Source of the DNA: a virus | Lineage: Duplodnaviria; Caudoviricetes | Reading direction: 5' to 3' (one strand) | IMG/VR virus record: IMGVR_UViG_3300022542_000213 | Span: 1 to 51,323 of that record | Length of the DNA stretch: 51,323 nucleotides | In this document: piece by piece, positions 2,121-41,970 of the stretch | How positions within the stretch are numbered: the first letter of the stretch is position 1 | Layout of the letters: every line of letters starts with the position of its first letter | Made by a program: the position numbers and the translations under genes | The notes under the pieces: generated by a model | What the model saw: the letters and a program-made list of their open reading frames with translations, nothing else | Database searches by the model: none | Told to the model about the DNA's origin: nothing

Positions 2121-3668
2121 ATGCAATTAATTATAGATTTATCAGGAAGAGAAGGATTAGCACCACGTTTTTTTGGAGATGTGGGTAGTTCTTCTAGTTC
2201 ACCAAACCTTAGATATTTAGGAGCAAAAGGTCAAGTGGCTGAGGGTGTTTATAATCCTCTAAGAAAATATGGTTACATGTGTGCTTCAGAAGCGACCTTT
2301 AGTGATGTAACTGTGGCTAGTGGAGCACCAGGAGAAACATTTACAACCTCTATTTATGATCCAGTAAATGATGATTTTTATGTTTCAGGTGGACAAAAGG
2401 TATATAAAGGAACAGATCTAACTGTAAGTGATGTAGCTTCTGTATTAGATCTTGGGTCAACTGGTACACCAACAATGTTAGACTTTGAAATTTATATGAT
2501 AAATGATGTTCAAAGACTATTCTATCTATACGAAAAAGGTGGAAATATGCTTTGTGGAGAAGCAGTATTGCCATTTGCTTCTGCTAATAGTGATTGGTTA
2601 GATACAGACGTTTCTGGAGCATTTACAAATGGTCTAACTAACGCATCAGCATTTATGAGAGTAGCTGATAATGGATTTATGTACATCTTCCAAGATAATA
2701 ATATACATGTAGTTGATGGTACAGGAGAAGGAGGAGCAACAGGAACTGTTACAGCTAATGTTATTCAATTCCCAATTACATTCTCAATAATTGATGCTAT
2801 TGATTATAAAGGATATATAATGGTTCTTATTAAACAAACAACTAAACTTACAGCTACAAAAGCTAATGTTAGTTATGGTGTATATGTATGGGATAGACAA
2901 TCAACTGTGGTTAATTCAAGAGACTATATACCTCTTACTGGAATTGATCGTGCACATAAAATATATGTAGCTCCAAATGGTAATGTAAGACTAATGGTAA
3001 CTAAACCAAATGAAATTACTGAAATTAGAGAATATACTGGAGCAACATTTAAACCAATACAAGAAGTAGGTATTAATGCACAACCAGAATCACTTGATGG
3101 TTTAACACAGATGGGAGAACTAACTGTGTGGTTATCAAATGATAAATACGTGCTTGCACATGGAAGTATTCTACCAGGAGAGAAAGAAGGTTTATTTAGA
3201 TTAGGAAAAATAGTAGATGCTTCTTCTATTACAGCAGGTGCAATTATATATGGTAATAATGGTTTATATTTATCTTATCTTGGTCAAGCTTTTGAATTTG
3301 TTCATTGGAATATCAATGGGACTACAACAGCAGCACAGGGTGATATATATACCTTAGTACAATATTTACCTCAAATGTCAACAGTAAAGAACGTAGAAAT
3401 ATATTGTTCTCCAATAACAAATACAGGAACAACAAAAGTAGCTGATATTAAAACCTACTTTAATCAATCTACAACAGCATTTAAGACACATAATGCAGAT
3501 AGAGACCAAGTATCAAGAGGATATGTAGATTTTGAGTTAAATAAACCGTTTGTTAACTCAATTCAGTTAGAGATAGAACACAGTACTAACGGAACTAATG
3601 AATTTTGTCCTTCATTTGCTGTAGTTGAATACGAACCAACCAAAACAAAAGGCTCAAAAGCTAGTTAA
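2121..3668 (+). CDS. Putative tail nozzle / DNA stabilisation protein (beta-propeller type)
   Basis: 515 aa, all-beta repeat character, position before adaptor and ejection genes. Confidence 0.5.
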   Translation: MQLIIDLSGREGLAPRFFGDVGSSSSSPNLRYLGAKGQVAEGVYNPLRKYGYMCASEATFSDVTVASGAPGETFTTSIYDPVNDDFYVSGGQKVYKGTDLTVSDVASVLDLGSTGTPTMLDFEIYMINDVQRLFYLYEKGGNMLCGEAVLPFASANSDWLDTDVSGAFTNGLTNASAFMRVADNGFMYIFQDNNIHVVDGTGEGGATGTVTANVIQFPITFSIIDAIDYKGYIMVLIKQTTKLTATKANVSYGVYVWDRQSTVVNSRDYIPLTGIDRAHKIYVAPNGNVRLMVTKPNEITEIREYTGATFKPIQEVGINAQPESLDGLTQMGELTVWLSNDKYVLAHGSILPGEKEGLFRLGKIVDASSITAGAIIYGNNGLYLSYLGQAFEFVHWNINGTTTAAQGDIYTLVQYLPQMSTVKNVEIYCSPITNTGTTKVADIKTYFNQSTTAFKTHNADRDQVSRGYVDFELNKPFVNSIQLEIEHSTNGTNEFCPSFAVVEYEPTKTKGSKAS

Positions 3669-3671
3669 TAC

Positions 3672-3700
3672 TTTACAAATAACAAAATAAATGCTATAAT
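3672..3700 (+). promoter_or_regulatory. Sigma70-type promoter with extended -10, near-leaderless
   Basis: TTTACA-17 nt-(TG.)TATAAT, ATG 8 nt downstream. Confidence 0.75.
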
Positions 3701-3708
3701 ACACAAAT

Positions 3709-4956
3709 ATGTCACTAACAACAGCTAATATTATCACACAAGTTGATACTTATATAGGAGATTCATCAACAGATAGAGTTTCCGCAGCCCAAAGATTACA
3801 ATCTATAACAGAGGCTTGTATTTGGGTTCAAGAAGAACTAGGTAATGACTTACAAAATTATACCGAAACTATATTATACTATGATACAGTAAATTACTAT
3901 AAAGTAACTACTGATATAGCTGATTTATTACAAGGAGCTGACTTAAGAAGAGAAAAAGACGACCAATATTTCTCATTTACACCAGTATCTGCAAGAGAAT
4001 TAGCTGAAATGGTAGGTCAAAAACAATCGGAATCTGCTTGGACAATAGAAAGAAGAGATACAGATGCTTATGTAGGTATTAATCATAATTCTAAACATAC
4101 AGCTAAGATAGTATCAGACTTTGATTCGACTACTTCTGGTGGTGGAACATGGGCTGTGGATGCAACCAATTCAGATGCTACTAACTTAACTGTAGATACA
4201 AATGAATTTAAACAAGGTACTGCATCACTTAATTTTGATATTGATGTATCTCAATCAGGTAATAATAGAGCTACTCTTGTAAATAGTACATTCACAACAT
4301 CTGATTTATCAGACTTTGAAGATTTAGCAGCTTGGTTGATGTGGGTTTATGTACCAGATGTAACTGAATTTACTTCAGTAACTATGTTCTGGGGTTCAGA
4401 TTCATCTAATTACTGGTCTGTAACAGCTACAACTGATATGGATGGAGCTTCATTTGCAGATGGTTGGAATAGAGTTAAAGTAGATTGGTCAGATGCTACT
4501 AAAACAAGCTCTCCTGACGTAGAGAATATTGATTACTTGAGAATAGACTTGAATTATGGAGCTGGACAAGGAGATGATACAGATTACAGAGTTGATTATT
4601 TAATATTAGCAAGACCAGAGAAACTAACTTACCATTATATTTCATGGAAGGTAGGGGTAGATAATTCTGGAGATGATATACTAAAGTTTGGTGCAACTAC
4701 AGATGTACCTTATTTCTCAGGTATGTATGACCAGTTACTATATCCAGTCGCACATAAAGCCGCTTCATTGTTGTTTAATCCAACATTAAGATTACCACAA
4801 GAAGCACAATTAGAGGAAGTAGAAGCATTAAAAGCATTAAGAAGAGTTAGAAGACTAATCCCTTCATCACGTGTTAAAGAAGTAAAGAGTTTCAAAGTTA
4901 AAGGAGTAAGCTTTGCTAGACGTAACAGAGGAAGAAGAGGTAATATAATAAGATAA
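3709..4956 (+). CDS. Putative head-tail adaptor (tail tubular A-like) with inserted beta domain
   Basis: Helical N-terminus (LTTANIITQVDTYIGD) and C-terminus (DVPYFSGMYDQLLYPVAHKAA) typical of adaptors; central Trp/Asp-rich beta insert. Confidence 0.5.
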   Translation: MSLTTANIITQVDTYIGDSSTDRVSAAQRLQSITEACIWVQEELGNDLQNYTETILYYDTVNYYKVTTDIADLLQGADLRREKDDQYFSFTPVSARELAEMVGQKQSESAWTIERRDTDAYVGINHNSKHTAKIVSDFDSTTSGGGTWAVDATNSDATNLTVDTNEFKQGTASLNFDIDVSQSGNNRATLVNSTFTTSDLSDFEDLAAWLMWVYVPDVTEFTSVTMFWGSDSSNYWSVTATTDMDGASFADGWNRVKVDWSDATKTSSPDVENIDYLRIDLNYGAGQGDDTDYRVDYLILARPEKLTYHYISWKVGVDNSGDDILKFGATTDVPYFSGMYDQLLYPVAHKAASLLFNPTLRLPQEAQLEEVEALKALRRVRRLIPSSRVKEVKSFKVKGVSFARRNRGRRGNIIR

Positions 4957-4957
4957 T

Positions 4958-6253
4958 ATGGCAGAATCAAAACCAATTTCAGATAAAGAAGTAAACGACT
5001 TGTTAAAACAAGGTTTCCAAGAAGGAGACACAGTACCTGGTAGAGGGAGACTTTCGCCTTCTGGTACTTTTATAACCGAAGACGCACCTACTAATATAGC
5101 AGAGACAGCAGGTCTTACAGGAGGAGGTAGTTCTAAAACTACAACTACTACTAAGACAGGTGGTACAGGCACAACAGATCCTTTCCTAGATCAATTACAA
5201 CAAAAGCTATTAGGACAAGCAGGAATTATATCATCAGGACAAACAGGTCTTGAAGCTAAAATTCAAGAAGCTATTAGTGGTGTATCAAAATCACAGGAAG
5301 CTAGTGCTGCAGGATTAGAAATTGGTGCAGAAAGAGCTATTAGTGGTGTAAGAGAAGCTGGTGCTCAAAAACTAACTTCTGCTAGAGAATCTCAAAGAGG
5401 ATTTGGTGTTAACCGTGCTGCTTTAAAACAGATAACAGATGAAACTCAAAAATCTGTACGTGATTTAGAAGGTAGAAAACAAGAACTCATCTTATCTGGT
5501 GAAGCTGCCGCTGCTTCTAAAATAGCAGAGTTACAATTTAGTGCTTTAGAATTCCAACAACAAGCGATGCAACAAACATTCTCTAATCTATTACAAGTAG
5601 GTGGATTTGCTATAGAGAAATCAAGAGAAAGTAGATTACAAGCAGCTCAAACAAGTCAAGAGAAACAACAAATTGCTTCAATTGCATTAGAGTTTGGATT
5701 ACCTGTAACAGAAGGAGAAACATTAGATACTATTGTAGCTAAGGCTTCACCTTTTGCAACAGAACAACAAAGACTAAAGATGCAGAAGACTCGAGCTGAA
5801 ATAGCTAGGATTCAAGCAGAAACTCAAAAGGCATTAGCTGGACAAGACTTTGCTTTCGATCAACCATTAGCATCATCAATTGCTAATACATTAAACAACT
5901 TGTTAACTTCAACTGATCCTTTTGCAGCTCAATCTATTGAAGCTATATTAGGAAACGTAGTAGATAAACATGGAGCATCTGCACTTGAACAGATAAAAAG
6001 AGAACAAGAATCATTAAGAAATGAACAATTCTCTTCAGATAATTTAAGGTCTGATATTTCAGAAGATATACAATCTGGTGCTTCTCGTAGAGATATAAGC
6101 GATTCAATTGAATCTAATCAACTTATGAACCCAGAACAAAGAGAAGAGGCAACTAATATTCTAAATGAATTGTCACCTAGACAACCATCATTATTAGATA
6201 GAGCATTTACAGATATTGGTGATACATTATTTGGTTCTCAACGTAATAGATAA
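4958..6253 (+). CDS. Putative DNA ejection / internal virion protein
   Basis: Ala/Gln-rich helical protein following tail genes. Confidence 0.5.
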   Translation: MAESKPISDKEVNDLLKQGFQEGDTVPGRGRLSPSGTFITEDAPTNIAETAGLTGGGSSKTTTTTKTGGTGTTDPFLDQLQQKLLGQAGIISSGQTGLEAKIQEAISGVSKSQEASAAGLEIGAERAISGVREAGAQKLTSARESQRGFGVNRAALKQITDETQKSVRDLEGRKQELILSGEAAAASKIAELQFSALEFQQQAMQQTFSNLLQVGGFAIEKSRESRLQAAQTSQEKQQIASIALEFGLPVTEGETLDTIVAKASPFATEQQRLKMQKTRAEIARIQAETQKALAGQDFAFDQPLASSIANTLNNLLTSTDPFAAQSIEAILGNVVDKHGASALEQIKREQESLRNEQFSSDNLRSDISEDIQSGASRRDISDSIESNQLMNPEQREEATNILNELSPRQPSLLDRAFTDIGDTLFGSQRNR

Positions 6254-6255
6254 AT

Positions 6256-9200
6256 ATGGGATTAATAAATCAAACAACAGTTAAACCTAGTGGTAGTTCA
6301 GGAGGTTTCGGTGGGTTTGCTGGTAATAAAAGTAGCTTTACTGGTCTTGGGAGTAGAAATAAACTATCTCCTGATGACCTATTACAAAGAGCTTTACAAG
6401 AAGGAGGAAACTTAGGTCAAGTAGCTCAAGAATTAGTACATCCAGAAACTTCAATACTGTCAACTATAGGAGATGGTTTTAAGAAATCATTTAAGAACTT
6501 TGTTGAAGTTATTTCAGTACCAGGACAAGTAGTAGCTGGTACTATTTCTGGTGATGTTACAATTAAGGAAGCTATACAACAAAATATAGATCCTTCTGAT
6601 GTTATATGGGGAGATAGAAATCCTGACGCTACACTATCACAAAAGGTAGGTGGTTTTTTAGTTCGTACTGCAACAGATATTCTATTAGATCCATTGACAT
6701 ATATAACATTTGGTGGTGCTAAAGGAATCTTAGGATTATCATCAGCCCCAAGAGTTACATTAAGAGGAAAAGCTGCTAAAGAAATAGGATTAGATGATTT
6801 TGCAGCAAGAGAACTAAGTGGTAAAGGACTTGATGTGTTTAAATATGTAAAGAATCTAGAACATCAAGCTGATGGTACAGCTAAAATACTTGATCTAACG
6901 AGTAAATCACTTGATACTACACTTGCTACTAAGAATCTTAAACAATTAAAGGAGAGTGCTAAAGCATTTAATGCTACTAAAACAAGTTCACATGAGTTAA
7001 TAGGTGCAGAACTTAAACAATTACTTGATACTACAGTAGATGCTAAGTTAGGATTTGATTATTCTAAGAGAGCTATGTCTAACCTGTTAGCTAAGAATCC
7101 AGGATTAGTTGAAGAACTAATTGATAAAGGAGGTTTTAAGTTTATGGGTAAGTCTTTATTGTCAGGACAAAAAATGAGATCAGTAATGTCTGTAATTCCT
7201 GGTATGACTCATGTAGATAGACTAACACAGCCAGTAAGAGGAGCTTTAGGTGCTATGTTTGACCCAGCAGTAGTTAAAGTTAATAAACAATTTGTTAGAT
7301 TACCAGAAGAGTTTGTTAATATAAGACAAGCAGGACAAGATTTAGCTACATCATTAGGTGATGAAAGACTAATTAAATTAGCTGATGTAGTCCGAGCTAA
7401 TAAACTGAATGTGAATGAATCACGTTTCTTAACTGCATCTATTGAAGCAGGTAAGTTACCAGTAGATAGTAGACTTGCTAATGCTTATAAACAATTACTT
7501 GGTTTCAATGAAGAAGAGTTTGACTTAATGAAAAGTAGTGGTGTAATGATTAGTAGAAGAGATAATCACGTACCCCATATGCTTGTTAAGAATGATATTG
7601 TAAAGATACCATTCGCAACACCACCTAAAGCTGTAGCAGGTGCTTCTTTCCAAAGGAAGTTAGAAGGAGAAATCTTCCAAATTTCAGATGAAGGATTAGA
7701 AGCATTAGAGACTACACTTACAGGTGGAGATAAAAAACTTATTGAAGAGACTTTTAATGATTTAAAAACAAAAGGTTACGAAATATTTGATGATAATGTA
7801 GTTACTGCTTTAGCTAAACGTTCATTAGATAACACAAGAGTATCTGTGTCAAGACAATTCATAACAAGTGTTGCAGAAGCATTTGGTACATCAGCTGGAA
7901 CAGCTTCTAAAGGGTTTGTCAAGATCAATAGTAAAGCCTTTAAGGAAGAAGGTGGTAAGGTAGCTCGTATGCTAGGAACAGATGGAGAAGATATTGTATA
8001 TCACCCAGCTGTAGCTAAAGCTATAGAGGACTTTGTTGGTGCTGTTAATAGTGATGACTCTACTGCAGTTGTATTGAAAGCATTTGATAATATACAAAAC
8101 CTATGGAAAGCTTCAGTAACAACTATATTCCCTGCCTTCCATGGTAGAAATGGAGTATCCAATGTATTCCTGAACTTTAATGATATAGGATTACATTCAT
8201 TAGACCCAAGACTTCATGCTCAATCTGGTTCACTATTACTAGCTGATAGAAAAGCTAATAGTTTAACACGAAAATCAATGAAACCTGGTAAAGCTGGAGA
8301 ACAAGCTATGGAAGAACTTCAAGAGCTTATGGAGAAGAAAGTATTTACAGACAATACAGGACACTCATGGTCATTTGGAGAACTAAGAACAGTAGCTAAG
8401 AATAATAATGTAGCCTTTTCAAGACAACTAACAGGTGCTTTAGATATTTCACAATCACCAGAGACTTTTATTACTACATTATTTAGAAGTGAAGAACCTA
8501 TATTAAAGAAAGTAGTTAGAAAAGGAGTACCAGTAACACAAGAGTTTGCTCCATTTGCCATTGGACGTGGTATTGGTAGAGCAGTAGAAGAACAAGCAAG
8601 ACTGATTAACTTTCTTGCGAACTTAAATGCTACTGGAGATGTGATGCATGCCGCCCAAAGAACCAAACAATTCCTGTTTGATTATCAAAACTTGACAGGA
8701 TTTGAAAGAAATGTTATGAAGAGGATGATTCCTTTCTATACTTTCACCCGTAAGAACTTAGAACTACAAGTTAAAACACTGTTTAAAACACCAGGACGTA
8801 TATCAGCACAGTTTACAGCACTACAGAACGTAGGAGATGCTATGGCTGGTGGTCAGCTTACTGAAGAACAGAGAGAAGCATTGCCAGATTGGATAAAAGA
8901 TGGTATAGCTATTCTTAAATCTAATAAAGATGGTACAGTAGAGATATTAGGTTCATTAGGTACACCTATAGAACAACCATTCCAACAATTCCAACCTAAT
9001 ATTATGCTAGGGTCTGTATCTCCTTTGATTAGAGCACCTGTAGAACATATGTCTGGTTATTCATTCTTCCATGGTAAAGCCATGAGTGATATTACTAATG
9101 CCTCAGCTTTCAAGAATGCCCCTAAAGTTATTAAAGACTTTATAGGGTTTACAGAAGTTAAGTTTGATAAGGATGGAGAAGAACAAACATGGAATGTAGC

Positions 9201-14388: not shown

Positions 14389-14805
14389 CTACCTATTACT
14401 CCAACATGGTCGAGACCATATCCACGGAGCTGAACCTTCTACACTTAGTAACCACATTCCAGCTTCTATATTATCTTCTGTATCGTAAATGTCAAGTCCT
14501 CTTTCTGCCATGTAAGTCTGCCAGTAATGAGTATTGAATTGGAATAAACCAACATCAACCCCAACGACAGCCTTATAATTTCTTGCATCTTCGAGAAACC
14601 TTGATTCACAATAGATAATATTTCTAGCTAGAACTTCATCTACATTATACTTGATAGCATAATTAGATATAAGTTCATCGGTAGTAAAAGTTTCTTCAAT
14701 AGGTACTGGTGCTTCTGCATATGCAGGAACTCCAGCTATATGTAGGAAGGCAATAAGTATCATAATGATAGTTATCGCCATCCGTCTGGGTAATTCTTCA
14801 CCCAT
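14389..14805 (-). CDS. Lytic transglycosylase (SLT-like) with N-terminal signal/TM
   Basis: IIYCESRF catalytic Glu, GLFQF, DNIEAGMWLL..EG..PW; hydrophobic N-terminus. Confidence 0.85.
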   Translation of the reverse strand: MGEELPRRMAITIIMILIAFLHIAGVPAYAEAPVPIEETFTTDELISNYAIKYNVDEVLARNIIYCESRFLEDARNYKAVVGVDVGLFQFNTHYWQTYMAERGLDIYDTEDNIEAGMWLLSVEGSAPWIWSRPCWSNR

Positions 14806-14811
14806 AATGAT

Positions 14812-14839
14812 ATTATAACATATCTGTTAGGTTTGTCTA
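14812..14839 (-). promoter_or_regulatory. Sigma70-type promoter, leaderless start
   Basis: TAGACA-16 nt-(TG.)TATAAT-6 nt-ATG. Confidence 0.65.
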
Positions 14840-14840
14840 T

Positions 14841-15080
14841 CTATTTTATCTTGACACCTAACTTATTTAATGCTTTAGTTAGCTTACTCTTTCTATCTTT
14901 AGCCATCTCATTAGTTAATTCTGTTACAAACTTTCGTAGTTTCTTTGATTCTAAATTCTTAACTAATTCTCTCGGTTTGATTCCTAATGTTAATGCTATA
15001 GCAACAATCAATTTGTATACATTCTTATTGCTTTTAGCTTTTTTATTAGGTACTATTCTTTTTCCTGATCGTTTTATCAT
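14841..15080 (-). CDS. Basic hypothetical protein
   Basis: 79-aa Lys-rich ORF in operon. Confidence 0.6.
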   Translation of the reverse strand: MIKRSGKRIVPNKKAKSNKNVYKLIVAIALTLGIKPRELVKNLESKKLRKFVTELTNEMAKDRKSKLTKALNKLGVKIK

Positions 15081-15082
15081 AA

Positions 15083-15922
15083 TTATTTATTCCACGTAGT
15101 ATATCCAGATGTCTGTTCTAATATATATGACAGTTCATCGTTAGTATACCCTAGTGTTTCTCCTTGTTTTTCAATAATTCTATTCTTATATGGCGAATAA
15201 AGCACCTGCCAATCACCAATAACTTTATGTCCATTCCTTGCTTTACTTATCTCATTCTTAGAGATAGTCTTCCAGTCAATTTCTTTTACATCATACTTAT
15301 ATATAATGTCTGGTTCTGGTTCTATATCCTTAACAATATTTTCATTATATAACTTAGCCAACTTATTATAATGTTTGTCAAGGTCTACTGTTACTGTACC
15401 ACATTGATATAGTCTGTCTTTAATATGCTTACATTCAAGCCAGAATCTATGTAGTCCATCTATACTAGCTACAAATAGATAACCTTTATCTACTCCAAGT
15501 GCATCCATATATGTAGATAATTGACCTACATAACTCTCTCTAGGTGTATTTTCTTCATAGGATCTAATATCAAAGGCATTCTTATTGTTGATAGACTTTA
15601 TCTCAATAGGTAAACCTTCTTTAGTCACAGCATCCATATGATAAGTAATCTTAACACCTTCTCTCTCCATTAAACCACCACCATGTACATTTTGATCGTA
15701 ATCTTCTTGTACAACACCACTATCCTTTAGGACTTGTAGCATTTTATCCTCTACTCCTAAACCTGCCCCCCATTTCAATGTATCATACCATTGTACAGGG
15801 TTGGTAGGTTCTATTTCTTTGAAAGAACAATATATATCATATATTGATTTTCCATAATCAGAAGCATGGAATACTCCATCTCTCCAATTATCATCTAGTT
15901 TTATAGTTAATTTATCTAACAT
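15083..15922 (-). CDS. PD-(D/E)XK exonuclease (Cas4/RecB-like)
   Basis: FHASDYG, HMDA, IEIKS, GQLSTYM motifs; ATG at 15922 (MLDKL) preferred. Confidence 0.8.
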   Translation of the reverse strand: MLDKLTIKLDDNWRDGVFHASDYGKSIYDIYCSFKEIEPTNPVQWYDTLKWGAGLGVEDKMLQVLKDSGVVQEDYDQNVHGGGLMEREGVKITYHMDAVTKEGLPIEIKSINNKNAFDIRSYEENTPRESYVGQLSTYMDALGVDKGYLFVASIDGLHRFWLECKHIKDRLYQCGTVTVDLDKHYNKLAKLYNENIVKDIEPEPDIIYKYDVKEIDWKTISKNEISKARNGHKVIGDWQVLYSPYKNRIIEKQGETLGYTNDELSYILEQTSGYTTWNK

Positions 15923-24196: not shown

Positions 24197-24267
24197 CTCT
24201 CTCTGAAGGAATCGAACCTTCGTATTTCGGGCTTCAACCGAACGCTTTACCACTAAGCTAAAAGAGA
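24197..24267 (-). tRNA. tRNA with GAA anticodon (Phe), atypical, no encoded CCA
   Basis: Cloverleaf: TCTCTTT/AGAGAGA acceptor, GCTT/AAGC D-stem with GG, TTCGG-TTGAAGC-CCGAA anticodon arm, GAAGG-TTCGATT-CCTTC T-arm. Confidence 0.9.
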
Positions 24268-30792: not shown

Positions 30793-30912
30793 TTAAATAC
30801 ATCTTTTACATTTAGTACATCTATATCCCCAAACTTCTTTTTTAGGGTTTCCGAAGAGTTCCATTTCTAAATGTTCGCATTTCTTCTTTTTTTCTTTTTT
30901 CTTCATAAGCAT
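30793..30912 (-). CDS. 39-aa basic zinc-ribbon microprotein
   Basis: MLMKKKEKKKKCEH...YRCTKCKRCI*, TAATG overlap with upstream gene. Confidence 0.55.
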   Translation of the reverse strand: MLMKKKEKKKKCEHLEMELFGNPKKEVWGYRCTKCKRCI

Positions 30913-31199
30913 TAGTTTAGATTAGCAAGTTCATACTTGCCACTATTAATCTTCTTTTGTGTTTCCTTTTTGTCTTCTCCTAAAAATATATTTCTATATT
31001 TACCAGTAGTAGTAGAATAATCCCATTTATTTTCATCTAGTATTATTGCTTCGGGGTATCCGTCAAGATCATTTTCAATTATGGCAATTATACTATCATA
31101 ACTTTGAAAGTATGTTGTATCACCAACTTTAATAATAAACTGATTGACTACTTCTTTACCACTAGGGCTAGTCATATTCATAACTTTTACTTTTAACAT
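30912..31199 (-). CDS. Conserved-looking phage early protein of unknown function
   Basis: NQFII...FQSYDSIIA...WDYSTTTGKYRNIFLG pattern familiar from phage early proteins. Confidence 0.7.
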   Translation of the reverse strand: MLKVKVMNMTSPSGKEVVNQFIIKVGDTTYFQSYDSIIAIIENDLDGYPEAIILDENKWDYSTTTGKYRNIFLGEDKKETQKKINSGKYELANLN

Positions 31200-31257
31200 A
31201 ATATTTAATTATTTAATTTTCAATGTACGGACTAAACAATCGCTTGCTTATACTCTT

Positions 31258-31346
31258 ATTATAGTATACAATGGTTCTATTTCAATGAATATTGGGGATA
31301 AGTTATCAACAGTTATGCTTGACAATATTATTTGACATTGTATTAT
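31258..31346. promoter_or_regulatory. Divergent promoters centred on back-to-back DnaA-box variants
   Basis: Minus: TTATCCCCA-7-TTGAAA-16-TATAAT; plus: TTATCAACA-7-TTGACA-16-TATTAT. Confidence 0.65.
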
Positions 31347-31371
31347 TTATATGTTGTGGCGATATTTTCTA

Positions 31372-31400
31372 TTGACAAATGATATAGAATTTGCTATACT
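31372..31400 (+). promoter_or_regulatory. Near-consensus sigma70 promoter
   Basis: TTGACA-17 nt-(TG.)TATACT. Confidence 0.85.
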
Positions 31401-31404
31401 TGTC

Positions 31405-31540
31405 ATATCGTTATTTTTAGCGAGGTTATAGGTTCGCTTCGGTGTTCCAGTAACCTCACTAAAGGTAACATATAAATGGATTATGGTAGTTATCACAGGA
31501 AAAATACTGCACTTTCTACTACAATAGTAGTATTTTTTTT
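31405..31540 (+). ncRNA. Structured leader/sRNA: long UUCG-capped hairpin plus terminator-like hairpin
   Basis: GUUAUUUUUAGCGAGGUUA/UAACCUCACUAAAGGUAAC stem, CGC-UUCG-GUG cap; UACUAC-AAUA-GUAGUA followed by U8. Confidence 0.6.
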
Positions 31541-31557
31541 GATTAAATAATAAATAA

Positions 31558-31836
31558 ATGAAAGTAATAACAACAGTAGAATATTACACAAAATCATCTC
31601 CAACTTGCCAAGAGATAGTTAGAATCTTCCCAGAAGGTACAAGCCCGACAGTTAAGGAGATAGAAGATTTATATATAAAACTATCAAAAACTGAATATAA
31701 GGACAAGGGAAAAAGAGAAAATGGATCTTTAAAATTAAAATCTAATCGTTCAACGAAGAAAAGGAGGGGGAGAAGATTTTACAAGAGATTAAGGAAACTA
31801 GGTTTTTGGGTAGCACCATCTTATCTAAATCTTTAA
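31558..31836 (+). CDS. Small basic protein, only plus-strand gene in the minus arm
   Basis: 92 aa, Arg/Lys-rich C-terminus KKRRGRRFYKRLRKLGF, downstream of a strong promoter. Confidence 0.65.
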   Translation: MKVITTVEYYTKSSPTCQEIVRIFPEGTSPTVKEIEDLYIKLSKTEYKDKGKRENGSLKLKSNRSTKKRRGRRFYKRLRKLGFWVAPSYLNL

Positions 31837-31867
31837 AAGATAAATAGAGGGTATTTAATGAATACCT

Positions 31868-32340
31868 TTTATTTTGTTTTTTAACAAACTCGTAGAAGTT
31901 AAATTATATAGGCGAGTAAAAGAACTATATAAGCAGTAGCAACGGCACAGGGATCGGATAGACTACTGAAAGTATAATAAAATAAGGGTGTGATAAATCA
32001 TGGCGACTTAAAACAGAGAATCGGAGGAAGAAACACTAACCTTTCCTTATAGAAGTATAAGGATATAATAGGGTCTATTTAATATTTATAGTTATACTTA
32101 AAATTAAGTTACTTACTTATATATAATAGTGGTATAGTATTAATAGTACTAGTGTATTATTATGTAAGAAGACAACACTAGGCTAGGGATGGATATACCA
32201 CTTATAAAAGTAAACCTAATACTAGAATTATAAACCATGGTAAAGCTACCAATAACTCTATTATCCTATCTTCTTTCCTCGATCTATTCATATTATTTAA
32301 AACTTTCTGTTAAGTACAACGAGGTACTAACAAGAATAAA
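31868..32340 (+). ncRNA. Candidate large structured RNA (~470 nt)
   Basis: Five perfectly nested long-range helices plus closing helices and local hairpins; G-U pairs favour + strand; no ORF. Confidence 0.7.
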
Positions 32341-32344
32341 GCAT

Positions 32345-32620
32345 TTATTTTAATTCTGTTCCATTAAATTTAAGCCATTTTGGGTTTTTATAAATACTTC
32401 CAATTACTATCATATTAGTAAGATTAAAACAACCACAACGATAATTATTTTCTAATGCTAGAAACCAACAATTAACATCTTTTTCCCAAGTTACAACCAT
32501 TTTAATTAGATGACGAGGGTTTTTAATATTCGGTTCATTGAAAATACATACATCACCCTCACGGATTTCAAACCCCCTACTGTCTTTTTTATTTATTTTA
32601 ACTCCTAATTTCTTCCTCAT
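32345..32620 (-). CDS. YopX-like protein
   Basis: KDSRGFEIREGDV and VIGSIYKNP match YopX C-terminal motifs. Confidence 0.7.
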   Translation of the reverse strand: MRKKLGVKINKKDSRGFEIREGDVCIFNEPNIKNPRHLIKMVVTWEKDVNCWFLALENNYRCGCFNLTNMIVIGSIYKNPKWLKFNGTELK

Positions 32621-32630
32621 TATAATATAT

Positions 32631-32753
32631 TTAACTTAATAATATAGTCAATGTTATAATTAGCATAGATATAAATATATATACCATAAACATTAACCAC
32701 TTTTTAAAAGCATTTATCCACTCTTCCTTTGTAAACCATAGAAATTTATCCAT
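32631..32753 (-). CDS. 40-aa membrane microprotein
   Basis: MDKFLWFTKEEWINAFKKWLMFMVYIFISMLIITLTILLS*. Confidence 0.5.
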   Translation of the reverse strand: MDKFLWFTKEEWINAFKKWLMFMVYIFISMLIITLTILLS

Positions 32754-34744: not shown

Positions 34745-34776
34745 AACTTTAAATGAACTAAACTTTTAATATCTAT

Positions 34777-34820
34777 ATAATAGCATAAGACTAAATCAAT
34801 GCAATAGCACATGGGGATAA
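34777..34820 (-). promoter_or_regulatory. Promoter with DnaA-box variant
   Basis: TTATCCCCA-7-TTGCAT-16-(TG.)TATTAT. Confidence 0.6.
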
Positions 34821-34899
34821 CTCTTTGGATTATCCAAGAACTAACCCCATAATACAGGTATATTGACCCCTCTAATCATTTAAACACCCTTTAAAAGCT

Positions 34900-35400
34900 A
34901 ATTTCAAGGCTCACAAATCGCCCCAAACCCACTAAAACACCTATATAGAGGATAAAGGCTAATAACTAGCATATAACTAACTGAATACACCGCCCCCAAC
35001 TAACTAACCCTCTATACTACCACTAACTACTACCTATCACTACATACATAAAAAGAATACACTATAAGCCAGTCAATAAGTCCGCCCCCTACCCTAAGCC
35101 CCTACTATACATAGAGTATAAGACTACTATCACATACACACTAGACACTAGCACCACACACGCTTGATATAGCACACACTGTTAATATAGCCCCATGGTA
35201 TTGATATAGTATCTACCACCCTCCCCCCACATAGAACTAAAAGAAAAAGAAGTGTTGTTATTATAGGCTCTATACTGTATATATGTATATGTATAGGCAT
35301 AACTAAAGGGCGGGGGGTACGGAGGACAATGGGAACCGTAATATATATATACCCATCATCAACTATTCACAATATATTATATAACGTAATACAATTATAT
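34900..35400. other. Strand-skewed non-coding region, candidate packaging/terminus or origin
   Basis: C/A-rich plus strand with poly-C runs switching to a G-run at 35308-35317, directly upstream of terminase. Confidence 0.4.
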
Positions 35401-35420
35401 ATATTATACTACTATATGTC

Positions 35421-35449
35421 TTGCAATTATATATATTATATGTTATAAT
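35421..35449 (+). promoter_or_regulatory. Sigma70-type promoter for terminase genes
   Basis: TTGCAA-17-(TG.)TATAAT. Confidence 0.75.
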
Positions 35450-35475
35450 GTAAAAAATAACCCGCGATTAGACAT

Positions 35476-40726: not shown

Positions 40727-41029
40727 ATGGAAAATATAACAACCGAACAATTAGAACAAGAACTATTAATTAGATACAATTCTTTAGAAGAAACTAATAT
40801 AGATAAGAAAGAAGAAGATTTCATCTATAAGAAGTTAAAACAGATTGATGGTTTAAGTCAATACTTGACAAGAGTAGCTAATCAAGATGTAGTAAAATAC
40901 TTCTCAGCTACTACGGATGAACAGAGAGCTTTATTGAAAGGCTCATTTGCTAGAACTTTGTATATTAAAAACAAACTAAAAGATAAGAAGACATCTACTA
41001 AATTAGAAATTGGTAGATATGCAAAGTAA
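40727..41029 (+). CDS. Small helical head-assembly-associated protein
   Basis: 100 aa immediately after portal. Confidence 0.55.
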   Translation: MENITTEQLEQELLIRYNSLEETNIDKKEEDFIYKKLKQIDGLSQYLTRVANQDVVKYFSATTDEQRALLKGSFARTLYIKNKLKDKKTSTKLEIGRYAK

Positions 41030-41030
41030 T

Positions 41031-41059
41031 TTGCTTTTTATTAATTAGTATGTTATAAT
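41031..41059 (+). promoter_or_regulatory. Sigma70-type promoter for scaffold/capsid operon
   Basis: TTGCTT-17-(TG.)TATAAT. Confidence 0.75.
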
Positions 41060-41080
41060 AGCAAAAAGGATTAATTAGAT

Positions 41081-41250
41081 TAGTCCGTGTAGGGTATAGA
41101 GCACTTCGGTGCGAGGTCGGTACTATATCTTACACAGACTACTTTAAGTAGTCCATATAGTGTTGCAACTAGAGGACTCAACCTCACTAAGATCGAGTGG
41201 ACTCAACCACATTAAAAAGGGAGATTTTTATTAAAAAGGGAAGTTAAAAA
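41081..41250 (+). promoter_or_regulatory. Structured 5' leader of scaffold gene
   Basis: Long stem with GCAC-UUCG-GUGC, two hairpins with identical GG-ACUCAA-CC tops, two TTAAAAAGGGA repeats. Confidence 0.7.
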
Positions 41251-41259
41251 ATAAACATT

Positions 41260-41970
41260 ATGACAGATTCAAAACAGAATCCTGAAGTGAATCCAGGCGA
41301 CGAGGGGGAAGTCGTAACTCTTTCAAAGGAAGAGCACAATAAATTAGTCGAAGAAAATGCTAATTTAACCCAAGACAAGAGTAATCTTGTTGGCGAAATT
41401 ACTGAATTGCGTGAAAAAAAGCAACTCACTGAGGACGAAAAAGCAGAGTTAACTACAAAAGTTGAAGAACTTGAGAAAAGCGGAGACGCTGGAACTAAAG
41501 TCGAAACTGATGAAGTTAAGACTGTAGCGGAAGAAGTTGTAAGTAAAATTCTTTCACAGAATGAAGCTAAGATTCGTAAAGAAACTTTGCAGAAAGCTAT
41601 GGATAAATTTGTACAAGAGAACCCGCAATTCTCGAAAGAGAATGATGAAGGTGGACTTAAAAAGTCTGCATTCGATAAGAAGTTAACTATGTTTAACTTA
41701 GACAATTTGAAAACTGAAGATGAATTTCTTATAGCTTTCAAAGATGCTAATAGCTTGTTAGGTGGTAAACCAGTTGAAGAGCAACCAGAGAATAATATTC
41801 CTGCTGCTACAGATACAGGAAATGCCCCTGACCCAATTGATATACATGAATTATCTGCTAAAGAAGTAAAGATCGTAAATGACTTTATGGAAGGTGATAA
41901 GGAAAAGTATATTAAGATAAAAGCTAAGCGTCCTGACTATGTTGCTAGTTTACTTCGTAATATTTATTAA
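41260..41970 (+). CDS. Capsid scaffolding protein
   Basis: Acidic coiled coil between portal and capsid genes. Confidence 0.75.
   Translation: MTDSKQNPEVNPGDEGEVVTLSKEEHNKLVEENANLTQDKSNLVGEITELREKKQLTEDEKAELTTKVEELEKSGDAGTKVETDEVKTVAEEVVSKILSQNEAKIRKETLQKAMDKFVQENPQFSKENDEGGLKKSAFDKKLTMFNLDNLKTEDEFLIAFKDANSLLGGKPVEEQPENNIPAATDTGNAPDPIDIHELSAKEVKIVNDFMEGDKEKYIKIKAKRPDYVASLLRNIY

What the first reader, a model, noticed from the sequence alone, without database searches (positions are those of the whole stretch)
31372..32340. Stand-alone unit: strong promoter, UUCG leader, Arg-rich protein and a ~470-nt nested-helix RNA
Seen: this is the only plus-strand transcription unit inside the minus arm. 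After the 92-aa ORF there are ~500 ORF-free bases with strictly nested pairings: 32020-32032/32271-32283, 32065-32074/32255-32264, 32085-32093/32226-32234, 32128-32136/32194-32202 and 32149-32155/32175-32181. These are enclosed by 31889-31893/32319-32323 and 31868-31878/32329-32340, with local hairpins TTATATAG/CTATATAA, CAGTAG/CTACTG and CCTTATA/TATAAGG. G-U pairs point to the + strand. Known: large phage ncRNAs (GOLLD, ROOL) and replication-associated RNAs (ColE1 RNAII, ARRPOF) exist, and Arg-rich motifs bind RNA (lambda N). Inference: an RNA-protein system, possibly an RNA-primed origin or an antitermination-controlled ncRNA. Terminator-like hairpins flank the ORF (31517-31540, 31846-31870), so read-through may be regulated. 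I do not recognise it as a named family.
Basis: partly seen in the sequence, partly recalled or inferred. Interest (0 to 1): 0.8.

Follow-up and report, generated by a model that had tools for sequence, protein, structure and literature searches.

The report
Phage cassette: small basic protein plus hairpin RNAs
A self-contained phage cassette (promoter, very stable leader hairpin, terminator, gene for a small arginine-rich protein of an unnamed family, second terminator, then a long hairpin-rich non-coding stretch) recurs with the same layout around a distant homologue in other viral DNA, so it is probably a new protein-plus-RNA module whose function is still unknown.

Summary
The sequence features are real, but the single ~470-nt nested RNA is overstated. 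The promoter is TTGACA-17-TATACT. The leader folds strongly (z -6.33). The 92-aa ORF belongs to a real, unannotated family: 9 homologues among 1.84 billion representatives, AF2 pLDDT 87.5.

The whole 486-nt fold is no better than shuffles (z -1.67), and its outer closing helices have pair probability 0.00-0.31. An inner domain, about 32015-32290, does fold well (z -2.64). It ranks 3rd of 1112 windows of this genome. Rfam finds nothing.

The key new result comes from metagenome contigs that carry a homologue listed at 44% identity. They show the same order of parts:
- promoter, then a leader hairpin plus terminator (z -6.16);
- the ORF, then a hairpin that starts at the stop codon;
- about 590 ORF-free bases that fold well on the + strand only (z -3.06 and -3.01 against -1.15 and +0.05).

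Variants there show compensatory changes and helix-preserving replacement. The non-coding parts share no primary sequence with the window.

Best reading: a mobile protein-plus-structured-RNA cassette gated by two terminators. I found no support for an origin.

The parts
31258..31285 (-). Divergent promoter-like site (TTGAAA, 16 nt, TATAAT) in front of the 95-aa minus-strand gene. It marks the left edge of the island.
31319..31346 (+). Upstream promoter-like site (TTGACA, 16 nt, TATTAT; 11 of 12)
31372..31400 (+). Main promoter-like site (TTGACA, 17 nt, TATACT, TG before the -10; 11 of 12). The inferred start of the RNA is near 31407.
   Evidence: the start site is inferred
31405..31473 (+). 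28-bp 5' hairpin capped by a C(UUCG)G tetraloop
   Evidence: 31400-31545: -43.9 kcal/mol, z -6.33, 0 of 200 shuffles
31496..31540 (+). Terminator-like hairpin T1: A tract, 6-bp core stem 31516-31530, U run 31531-31540. It ends 17 nt before the start codon.
   Evidence: The consensus scan lists no terminator because it requires 3 G-C pairs.
31558..31836 (+). Gene for a 92-aa protein: three short helices, a beta hairpin and a long Arg/Lys-rich C-terminal helix ending in a conserved G-[FYH]-W (the G and W are invariant)
31834..31883 (+). Hairpin T2 (23 bp). It begins at the stop codon, and its A-rich 5' arm pairs with a U-rich 3' arm around a G+C core.
31884..32019 (+). ORF-free stretch with small local hairpins; its folding is not above chance
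   Evidence: z -1.34; no open frame
32020..32283 (+). Long nested hairpin domain. The robust core is 32045-32264 (pair probabilities 0.64-0.99). The outer helix 32020-32/32271-83 has probability 0.31.
32284..32344 (+). Tail of the ORF-free stretch, up to the stop codon of the convergent YopX-like gene (32345-32620, minus strand)

Best explanation
The region is an autonomous accessory ('moron'-like) cassette of a virulent-looking, AT-rich phage. In order it holds:
- one or two sigma-70-type promoters;
- a transcript that begins with a very stable hairpin and runs into an intrinsic terminator, so most transcripts should end as a leader RNA of about 135 nt;
- read-through into the gene for a small conserved protein with an arginine-rich C-terminal helix;
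- a second hairpin terminator that starts at the stop codon;
- several hundred bases of non-coding RNA folded into long hairpins.

The likely mechanism is inferred, not shown. The protein is a nucleic-acid binder, most probably of RNA. It would bind the cassette's own hairpin RNAs, meaning the leader, the 3' domain, or both. The two terminators would set how much protein and 3' RNA is made, by attenuation or antitermination feedback.

Shown here:
- the parts exist;
- the protein family is real;
- the order of parts recurs in a second lineage;
- in that lineage the RNA hairpins are maintained by compensatory change and fold on the coding strand only.

Not shown: any transcript, any binding, any effect on the host or on other phages.
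For: Protein:
- 10 proteins with E <= 0.001 (self included) in an exhaustive HMMER search of 1.84 billion representatives; lengths 83-114 aa.
- In the 13-sequence alignment, G27, Y39, S43, G82 and W84 are invariant.
- AF2 with that alignment gives pLDDT 87.5 and pTM 0.73.

Same architecture in the second lineage (10 loci; sequence):
- TTGACA, 17 nt, TAATAT at L120 4834-4862 (my reading of the sequence).
- Leader L120 4860-5005 has z -6.16, 0 of 200 shuffles as good, with a terminator hairpin just before the ATG.
- After the stop codon comes a hairpin with an A-rich arm, a G+C core and a U-rich arm, in three variants.
- No ORF of 40 aa or more on the + strand between 5249 and 5842.

RNA-level signals in the second lineage:
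- + strand folds at -149.6 (z -3.06) and -134.9 (z -3.01). The - strand folds at -108.4 (z -1.15) and -106.7 (z +0.05).
- In the leader alignment of 4 distinct sequences, 4 of 48 pairs change on both sides and 96.4% of cells are paired. Slid controls give 0-1 such pairs.
- Contigs with the identical protein keep two sequence blocks that pair with each other. The inner extension of that helix is replaced by unrelated, equally complementary sequence. An A-to-G change makes a G-U pair.

Cassette behaviour:
- Homology among the contigs starts at about L120 4823 in 5 of them (L116, L118, L121, L122, L124) and ends at or near 5999 in 3 (L115, L116, L118), with differing flanks.
- 0 of 50 and 0 of 29 related phage records carry the protein.
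- A syntenic relative has no island next to the neighbour gene.

Window: the inner domain ranks 3rd of 1112 windows and the leader window ranks 6th.
Against: - The window's non-coding parts share no detectable primary sequence with those of the second lineage. Shared k-mers lie within native controls apart from k=7 (1% tail). Smith-Waterman z is 0.65 and 0.47, and -0.85 for the leaders. Homology of the RNAs therefore rests on position and architecture only.
- The window's 3' fold is weak as a whole (z -1.67). It is only slightly better on + than on -, so in the window a DNA palindrome or plain spacer is not excluded.
- Covariation comes from 4 distinct, closely related sequences, and the structure was derived from one of them. 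In one variant (L119) the leader combines arms of two types and breaks two pairs of the basal stem.
- The protein's fold has no confident match. The best Z is 4.6, below the tool's stated noise level. RNA binding is therefore inferred from composition alone.
- The same phage has another promoter-proximal long hairpin with a UUCG loop at 41025-41265 (z -5.26). The leader hairpin may be a general mRNA feature and need not be a specific binding site.
Confidence: 0.5

Rival explanations
1. An ordinary moron that encodes a small winged-helix DNA-binding regulator. The hairpins are just transcript-stabilising 5' structures and terminators. The ~460 bases after T2 in the window are non-functional spacer, or a buffer and terminator zone between convergent transcription units.
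For: - The predicted topology (three helices, a beta hairpin, a C-terminal helix) aligns with ArsR/SmtB-type winged-helix repressors at Z 3.9-4.2.
- The language-model search points to HTH families, at score 0.78, which is a lead only.
- Three strong promoters sit back to back at 31258-31400.
- The window's whole 3' fold is within shuffle range.
- There is no sequence conservation with the homologue's 3' region.
- A similar UUCG hairpin occurs elsewhere in the phage.
Against: - The homologue also carries ~590 ORF-free bases that fold with z about -3 on the + strand only.
- In that lineage the helix between the two conserved blocks is kept while its inner extension is replaced by unrelated complementary sequence.
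- The window's inner domain ranks 3rd of 1112 windows.
- By my reading of the alignment, the putative recognition helix is poor in basic residues, and the charge sits in the C-terminal helix.
Confidence: 0.25
2. The leader RNA of about 125-135 nt is the main product. It would be an antisense, immunity-type or incompatibility-type small RNA whose hairpin sequence sets specificity. The small protein would be its helper, in the manner of Rom or FinO (recalled).
For: - The promoter is followed directly by a hairpin and a terminator, in both lineages.
- Among otherwise near-identical cassettes, substitutions cluster in the leader. L116 differs from L120 at 20 of the 186 positions compared, 15 of them from 4866 onward, which is the leader proper. 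Its 700 bases after the ORF are identical. 4 pairs change on both sides.
Against: No target was found. There are no DNA matches in the phage collection, and complementarity inside the window is only at chance level. This reading does not explain the long 3' region.
Confidence: 0.12
3. A minimal relative of TIGR-Tas: a Nop-like RNA-binding protein with stem-loop guide RNAs.
For: - Foldseek's four best rows are TasH chains (E 0.2-0.6, TM 0.23-0.28).
- The independent aligner lists four Nop5 or Prp31 Nop-domain entries by title at Z 3.7-4.2.
- The papers describe stem-loop arrays with variable palindromic stems, often in phages.
- Hairpins vary beside an identical protein.
Against: - All structural scores are below the tools' stated noise level, and TasH realigns at Z 2.9-3.5.
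- A profile search against all PDB sequences finds nothing at E <= 10.
- There is no tandem array of units (my reading).
- By my reading, a 92-aa protein looks too small for the Nop core with coiled coil that those sections describe.
Confidence: 0.04
4. An RNA-primed or hairpin-type replication origin with its initiator or accessory protein.
For: A large AT-rich imperfect palindrome at 32020-32283 folds on both strands; the - strand ranks 16th of 1112 windows. The cassette lies in the early/replication arm.
Against: - There are no iterons or tandem repeats.
- GC skew follows gene direction and has no extremum here beyond the + island itself.
- In the homologues folding is strongly + strand-specific.
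- The cassette is absent from 0 of 79 related records searched, 20 of them at least 90% complete. An essential origin should not be absent in that way.
Confidence: 0.05

Closest known systems
Lambda-type N/nut processive antitermination modules (recalled from textbook knowledge)
   Same: An early promoter, a hairpin in the 5' leader, a gene for a small arginine-rich protein downstream of that hairpin, and intrinsic terminators downstream. An aromatic residue follows the basic helix.
   Different: There is no sequence relation to N (Pfam, PHROGs and NCBIfam give nothing). The basic helix is C-terminal and follows a folded domain. A terminator lies between the leader hairpin and the gene. In the window there are no + strand genes downstream to be read through. 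No boxA/boxB was identified.
Autoregulatory leaders of ribosomal-protein operons (structured leader plus terminator before the gene of a small basic RNA-binding protein; recalled)
   Same: The order promoter, structured leader, intrinsic terminator, then the gene for a small basic protein. The protein may also have a larger cognate RNA.
   Different: The protein is not a ribosomal protein. No Rfam leader family matches. The presumed cognate RNA is encoded in the same cassette.
TIGR-Tas stem-loop systems (PMC12045711, sections 4, 9 and 24 read; bioRxiv 10.64898/2026.09.09.750476, abstract, first part of Results and sections 7 and 11 read)
   Same: Phage-borne; a small RNA-binding protein next to non-coding DNA rich in hairpins whose stems vary between loci; weak fold resemblance to the Nop domain.
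   Different: There are no tandem units, no dual spacers and no box C/D-like motifs. The protein is much smaller. Structural scores are at noise level.
Large phage-associated ncRNAs GOLLD and ROOL, and the ARRPOF motif
   Same: A long, hairpin-rich non-coding stretch in phage DNA.
   Different: No Rfam 15 family reached its gathering score or E <= 10 here, apart from two noise hits in the leader/ORF part. I did not check that these three families are among the library's models. No sequence conservation has been shown so far.
Type III toxin-antitoxin loci such as ToxIN (recalled)
   Same: A promoter, a structured RNA, a terminator that sets the RNA-to-protein ratio, then a protein gene.
   Different: The leader is one hairpin; it is not a tandem array of ~36-nt repeats. 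The protein matches no PADLOC model and is half the size of those toxins.

Membership tests
Any Rfam 15 family (GOLLD, ROOL and ARRPOF if the library holds them, riboswitches, ribozymes, introns) | Covariance-model match at the family's gathering score | tested here: not met
   Window: only a tRNA at 24197-24267. At E <= 10 on 31200-32700 there are two hits far below gathering: 20.4 bits against 80, and 17.2 against 50. Homologue loci L119-L121 have nothing in the cassette.
TIGR-Tas | Tas protein with a Nop domain | tested here: inconclusive
   TasH: Foldseek E 0.2-0.6, realigned at Z 2.9-3.5. Nop5 and Prp31 entries: Z 3.7-4.2. All are under the tools' stated noise level. The profile against PDB sequences gives no hit at E <= 10.
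TIGR-Tas | Tandem array of units, each with two 8-12-nt spacers flanked by box C/D nucleotides (dual repeats or palindromic stems) | tested here: not met
   There are no direct-repeat families or tandem arrays of that kind in 31200-32700. The hairpins present have loops of 4, 13 and 23 nt and are not repeated units.
TIGR-Tas | Processing into unit-length guide RNAs | not testable with these tools
   No RNA run holds the stretch.
Lambda N / nut antitermination | N-family protein | tested here: not met
   No Pfam, PHROGs or NCBIfam match for any of the 13 family members.
Lambda N / nut antitermination | Arginine-rich motif that binds a leader hairpin; terminators read through in its presence | not testable with these tools
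   A basic helix, a leader hairpin and two terminators are present. Binding and read-through need experiments.
Type III toxin-antitoxin (ToxIN-like) | Tandem ~36-nt RNA repeats before a terminator, and a ToxN/AbiQ-type toxin | tested here: not met
   No tandem repeats in the leader. 0 of 13 members match PADLOC.
Winged-helix (ArsR/SmtB-like) DNA-binding regulators | Winged helix-turn-helix fold with a recognition helix | tested here: inconclusive
   The topology is compatible. ArsR-type chains align at Z 3.9-4.2, rmsd 3.2-3.8, 60-65 residues, which is below the noise level. There is no Pfam HTH match.
ColE1-type RNA-primed origin | Primer RNA with an overlapping antisense RNA, ending at an origin | not tested
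   No good antisense promoter lies over the leader; the best - strand site there is ATGACA/TATCAT at 10 of 12. Origin activity cannot be tested here.

The most novel reading that the evidence does not exclude
The cassette encodes a new phage ribonucleoprotein. A ~90-aa arginine-rich protein would work with long-hairpin RNAs whose hairpin sequences are swapped between otherwise identical cassettes. Those hairpins would be specificity determinants, that is sequence-programmable RNA used in phage-phage or phage-host conflict, comparable in logic to guide or immunity RNAs but built from unrelated parts.
Probability: 0.15. Interest if true: 0.85.

Novelty: new variant of a known kind. Interest (0 to 1): 0.55.

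Why it matters
If the association holds, this is an unannotated small protein family (absent from Pfam, PHROGs, NCBIfam and PADLOC) tied to structured RNAs that are absent from Rfam. The cassette moves between phage genomes. It would add to the short list of phage protein-RNA modules.

It also offers a compact system of about 1 kb, driven by sigma-70-type promoters, for studying terminator-gated expression of an RNA-binding protein together with its RNA. The variable hairpins beside an identical protein hint at a specificity function that could be tested directly.

If the association does not hold, the finding reduces to an ordinary moron with a small regulator and a spacer.

Tried and rejected
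Searches for similar DNA:
- blastn of 31200-32700 against 50,697 phage records: none. The homologue cassette and its variant: none.

Searches for loci of family members:
- Viral contigs with the window protein, P0007, alignment A3, P0016 and P0008: all without a relative.
- Genome contigs with P0007 and A3: none.
- Metagenome contigs with A3: none. With P0016: 10 loci.
- Alignment A1 was too diverse for the locus finder.

Other lines that led nowhere:
- Pseudogene remnant: 4639 stop-to-stop frames from 80 related loci were run by tblastn against 31200-32700 and gave only noise. The stretch has about as many stops as chance predicts (one search reports 15 in one frame).
- Fused or longer forms of the protein: none among 7999 candidates, which is weak evidence.
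- Sequencing runs: no RNA holder is listed. Three DNA runs of one marine-sediment study were laid. They gave near-identical contigs only and three single-base differences near contig ends.
- Sequence similarity between the window's and the homologue's non-coding parts: not significant. A collinear resemblance I saw by eye just after T2 reached only z 2.2 (14 of 500) in a post-hoc test, and I do not rely on it.
- TIGR-like reading: considered and ranked low.

Tools and files closed:
- Supplementary tables of the TIGR papers are closed. I therefore could not check whether this protein family or these contigs are among their listed loci.

No literature search was made for this protein family itself, because it has no name or accession to search with. 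One general search for phage structured ncRNAs gave nothing relevant (listing and abstracts only).
Full report
**Setting.** The window is a whole IMG/VR virus record of 51,323 bases, rated 100% complete. It is about 32% G+C and is held by DNA runs of one marine-sediment study. Genes run on + at 1-9.4 kb, on - at about 10-34.7 kb, and on + again from 35.5 kb. GC skew follows gene direction.

The minus arm holds a primase/helicase, a GroEL-like gene, polynucleotide kinase, an amidase and many small genes. None of the 25 ORFs scanned matched an integrase. Genes lack Shine-Dalgarno sequences. Sigma-70-type promoters are real signals here. There are 13 sites scoring 11 of 12 or better, against 3.7 in shuffles, and six of them sit directly in front of a gene on the right strand.

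**The observation.** The + island lies between the 95-aa gene (30912-31199, -) and a YopX-like gene (32345-32620, -). It starts with two strong promoter-like sites, and a third points the other way.

The transcript predicted from 31372-31400 begins with a 28-bp hairpin capped by a UUCG tetraloop. It then meets a hairpin with a U run that ends 17 nt before the start codon. This leader folds with z -6.33 (detail).

The 92-aa ORF is followed by a 23-bp hairpin that begins at the stop codon and ends in a U-rich run. The next 460 bases or so have no open frame.

The ensemble, however, supports only the inner ones (pair probability 0.64-0.99). The three outer helices get 0.31, 0.03 and 0.00.

The 486-nt fold is not better than dinucleotide shuffles (z -1.67 on +, -1.20 on -). 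The 5' third has z -1.34. The inner domain 32015-32290 has z -2.64 on + and -1.42 on -.

This domain ranks 3rd and the leader window ranks 6th. So there is real, above-background self-complementarity in two places, but not one closed 470-nt RNA.

**What it is not.** Rfam 15 gives nothing at gathering score and only two far-sub-threshold hits at E <= 10. There are no iterons or tandem arrays. No similar DNA exists in 50,697 phage records. I found no trace of a decayed gene.

**The protein.** It matches nothing significant in any library:
- Pfam: no family for the window protein and four isolated single-member hits (best E 0.025) among the 10 members scanned.
- PHROGs: best E 0.059.
- NCBIfam and PADLOC: no hit for any of the 13 members.

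An exhaustive HMMER search of 1.84 billion representatives found 9 homologues of 83-114 aa. Clusters added more. The 13-sequence alignment has conserved positions along its whole length and an invariant glycine and tryptophan at the end of the basic helix.

AlphaFold with that alignment is confident (pLDDT 87.5). The model has three short helices, a beta hairpin and a long basic helix.

Fold searches give no confident match. The best Z is 4.6, whereas the tool states that models without relatives typically reach 7-8. Winged-helix repressors and Nop-domain or TasH chains both appear at that level. A profile search of all PDB sequences is empty. I read the protein as a small nucleic-acid binder. 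RNA is the likelier ligand because the charge is concentrated in an arginine-rich helix followed by a conserved aromatic residue. That is an inference.

**The decisive comparison.** Most homologues lie in collections whose DNA I could not reach. One cluster (P0006/P0016, listed at 44% identity to the window protein) is in JGI metagenomes, and 10 loci came back. In L120 the gene sits among phage early genes: a DnaB-like helicase upstream, DNA methylases and a YopX gene downstream. It is built like the window's unit:
- TTGACA, 17 nt, TAATAT (my reading of the sequence).
- A leader that starts with a branched long hairpin and ends in a clean terminator hairpin just before the ATG. Its z is -6.16, with 0 of 200 shuffles as good.
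- The ORF.
- A hairpin whose A-rich arm contains the stop codon and whose U-rich arm follows a G+C core.
- About 590 bases without a + strand ORF of 40 aa or more, before a small gene that looked ribbon-helix-helix-like to me by eye but has no Pfam match.

That non-coding stretch folds at z -3.06. In a variant contig it folds at z -3.01. The opposite strand gives z -1.15 and +0.05 and is 41 and 28 kcal/mol weaker. That asymmetry argues for RNA on the gene's strand. It does not fit a DNA palindrome.

**Variation within that lineage.**
- Five contigs are identical over the 700 bases after the ORF. One differs in the first ~110 bases. Two contigs with the identical protein share only three sequence blocks.
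- The first two blocks pair with each other to form the base of a 27-29-bp helix. Its inner extension differs in sequence between the two types and is fully complementary in both. An A-to-G change in one block gives a G-U pair.
- The base of the post-ORF hairpin changes on both sides between variants (my reading).
- In the leader, 4 of 48 pairs change on both sides among 4 distinct sequences, and 96.4% of cells are paired. Slid controls give 0-1 such pairs.
- Caveats: the sequences are few and close, and the structure came from one of them. One variant (L119) combines arms of two types and breaks two pairs.
- Substitutions cluster in the leader. L116 differs from L120 at 20 of the 186 positions compared upstream of the ORF, 15 of them from 4866 onward. 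It has none in the 700 bases downstream.

**Cassette behaviour.** Homology between the contigs begins at about L120 4823 in 5 of them, just before the promoter, and ends at or near 5999 in 3. The flanks differ.

None of 50 records that carry the window's neighbour gene has the protein family (15 of them at least 90% complete). Neither do any of 29 records with a related terminase, 5 of them at least 90% complete. In one syntenic complete relative the neighbour gene is preceded directly by another minus-strand gene, with no island. The unit is therefore an accessory cassette.

**What remains weak.** The window's non-coding parts share no significant sequence with the homologue's. The link for the window's own 3' region is positional and architectural. 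On its own evidence (z -2.64, weak strand preference) the window's hairpin domain could still be a spacer or a palindrome. No RNA data exist. The phage also has another promoter-proximal UUCG-capped long hairpin at 41025-41265 (z -5.26). Such hairpins may be a general transcript feature in this phage.

**Verdict.**
- Most likely (0.5): a mobile protein-plus-structured-RNA cassette whose two terminators gate expression.
- Main rival (0.25): an ordinary regulator moron with a spacer.
- The origin idea is unsupported.

The protein family and the RNAs are in none of the libraries searched: Pfam, PHROGs, NCBIfam, PADLOC and Rfam.

Noticed in passing
window 41025-41265 (+): An intergenic stretch in the structural arm holds a promoter-like site followed by a very stable long hairpin capped by a CUUCGG loop (-63.5 kcal/mol, z -5.26, 0 of 200 shuffles), just upstream of the 236-aa gene at 41260. 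It has the same style as the leader hairpin of the finding.
   Followed up: partly
window 14629-14904 (-) and gap 14806-15082: This is the top-ranked 276-nt window for composition-corrected folding in the whole genome (rank 1 of 1112). The gap between two minus-strand genes folds at z -2.49 and also holds a TTG-started + ORF of 88 aa (14833-15099).
   Followed up: partly
window 32345-32620 (-): The YopX-like protein (91 aa) matches only the C-terminal half of the Pfam model (positions 57-128 of 128). The N-terminal half is missing or lies in the separate 40-aa ORF at 32631-32753.
   Followed up: no
window 34745-35475: A 730-base ORF-free divergence zone between the two arms, with several short tandem repeats (35015-35440; periods 13, 18, 17) and a strong minus-strand promoter at 35454-35426. 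The cumulative GC-skew minimum lies here. On position alone it is a better origin or regulatory candidate than the finding.
   Followed up: no
L114 (record G054) 5699-6276 and 3140-4770: The syntenic relative carries three tRNA genes (Rfam) and a G+C-richer stretch of about 1.6 kb without convincing ORFs, between its early arm and its terminase.
   Followed up: partly
L120 5795-5841 and the matching part of L119/L117: A purine tract with runs of G, followed by two copies of GTTAAC, is conserved at the 3' end of the homologue's non-coding region. In L117 homology to the other contigs ends just after it. It pairs with a pyrimidine tract that is also the 3' arm of the post-ORF hairpin, which suggests alternative pairings.
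   Followed up: partly
window 31515 and 31525: One Logan contig of run X1 reads G where the window has T at both places (inside or next to the T1 stem). Both are near the contig's end, at depth 5.9, so they may be errors.
   Followed up: no
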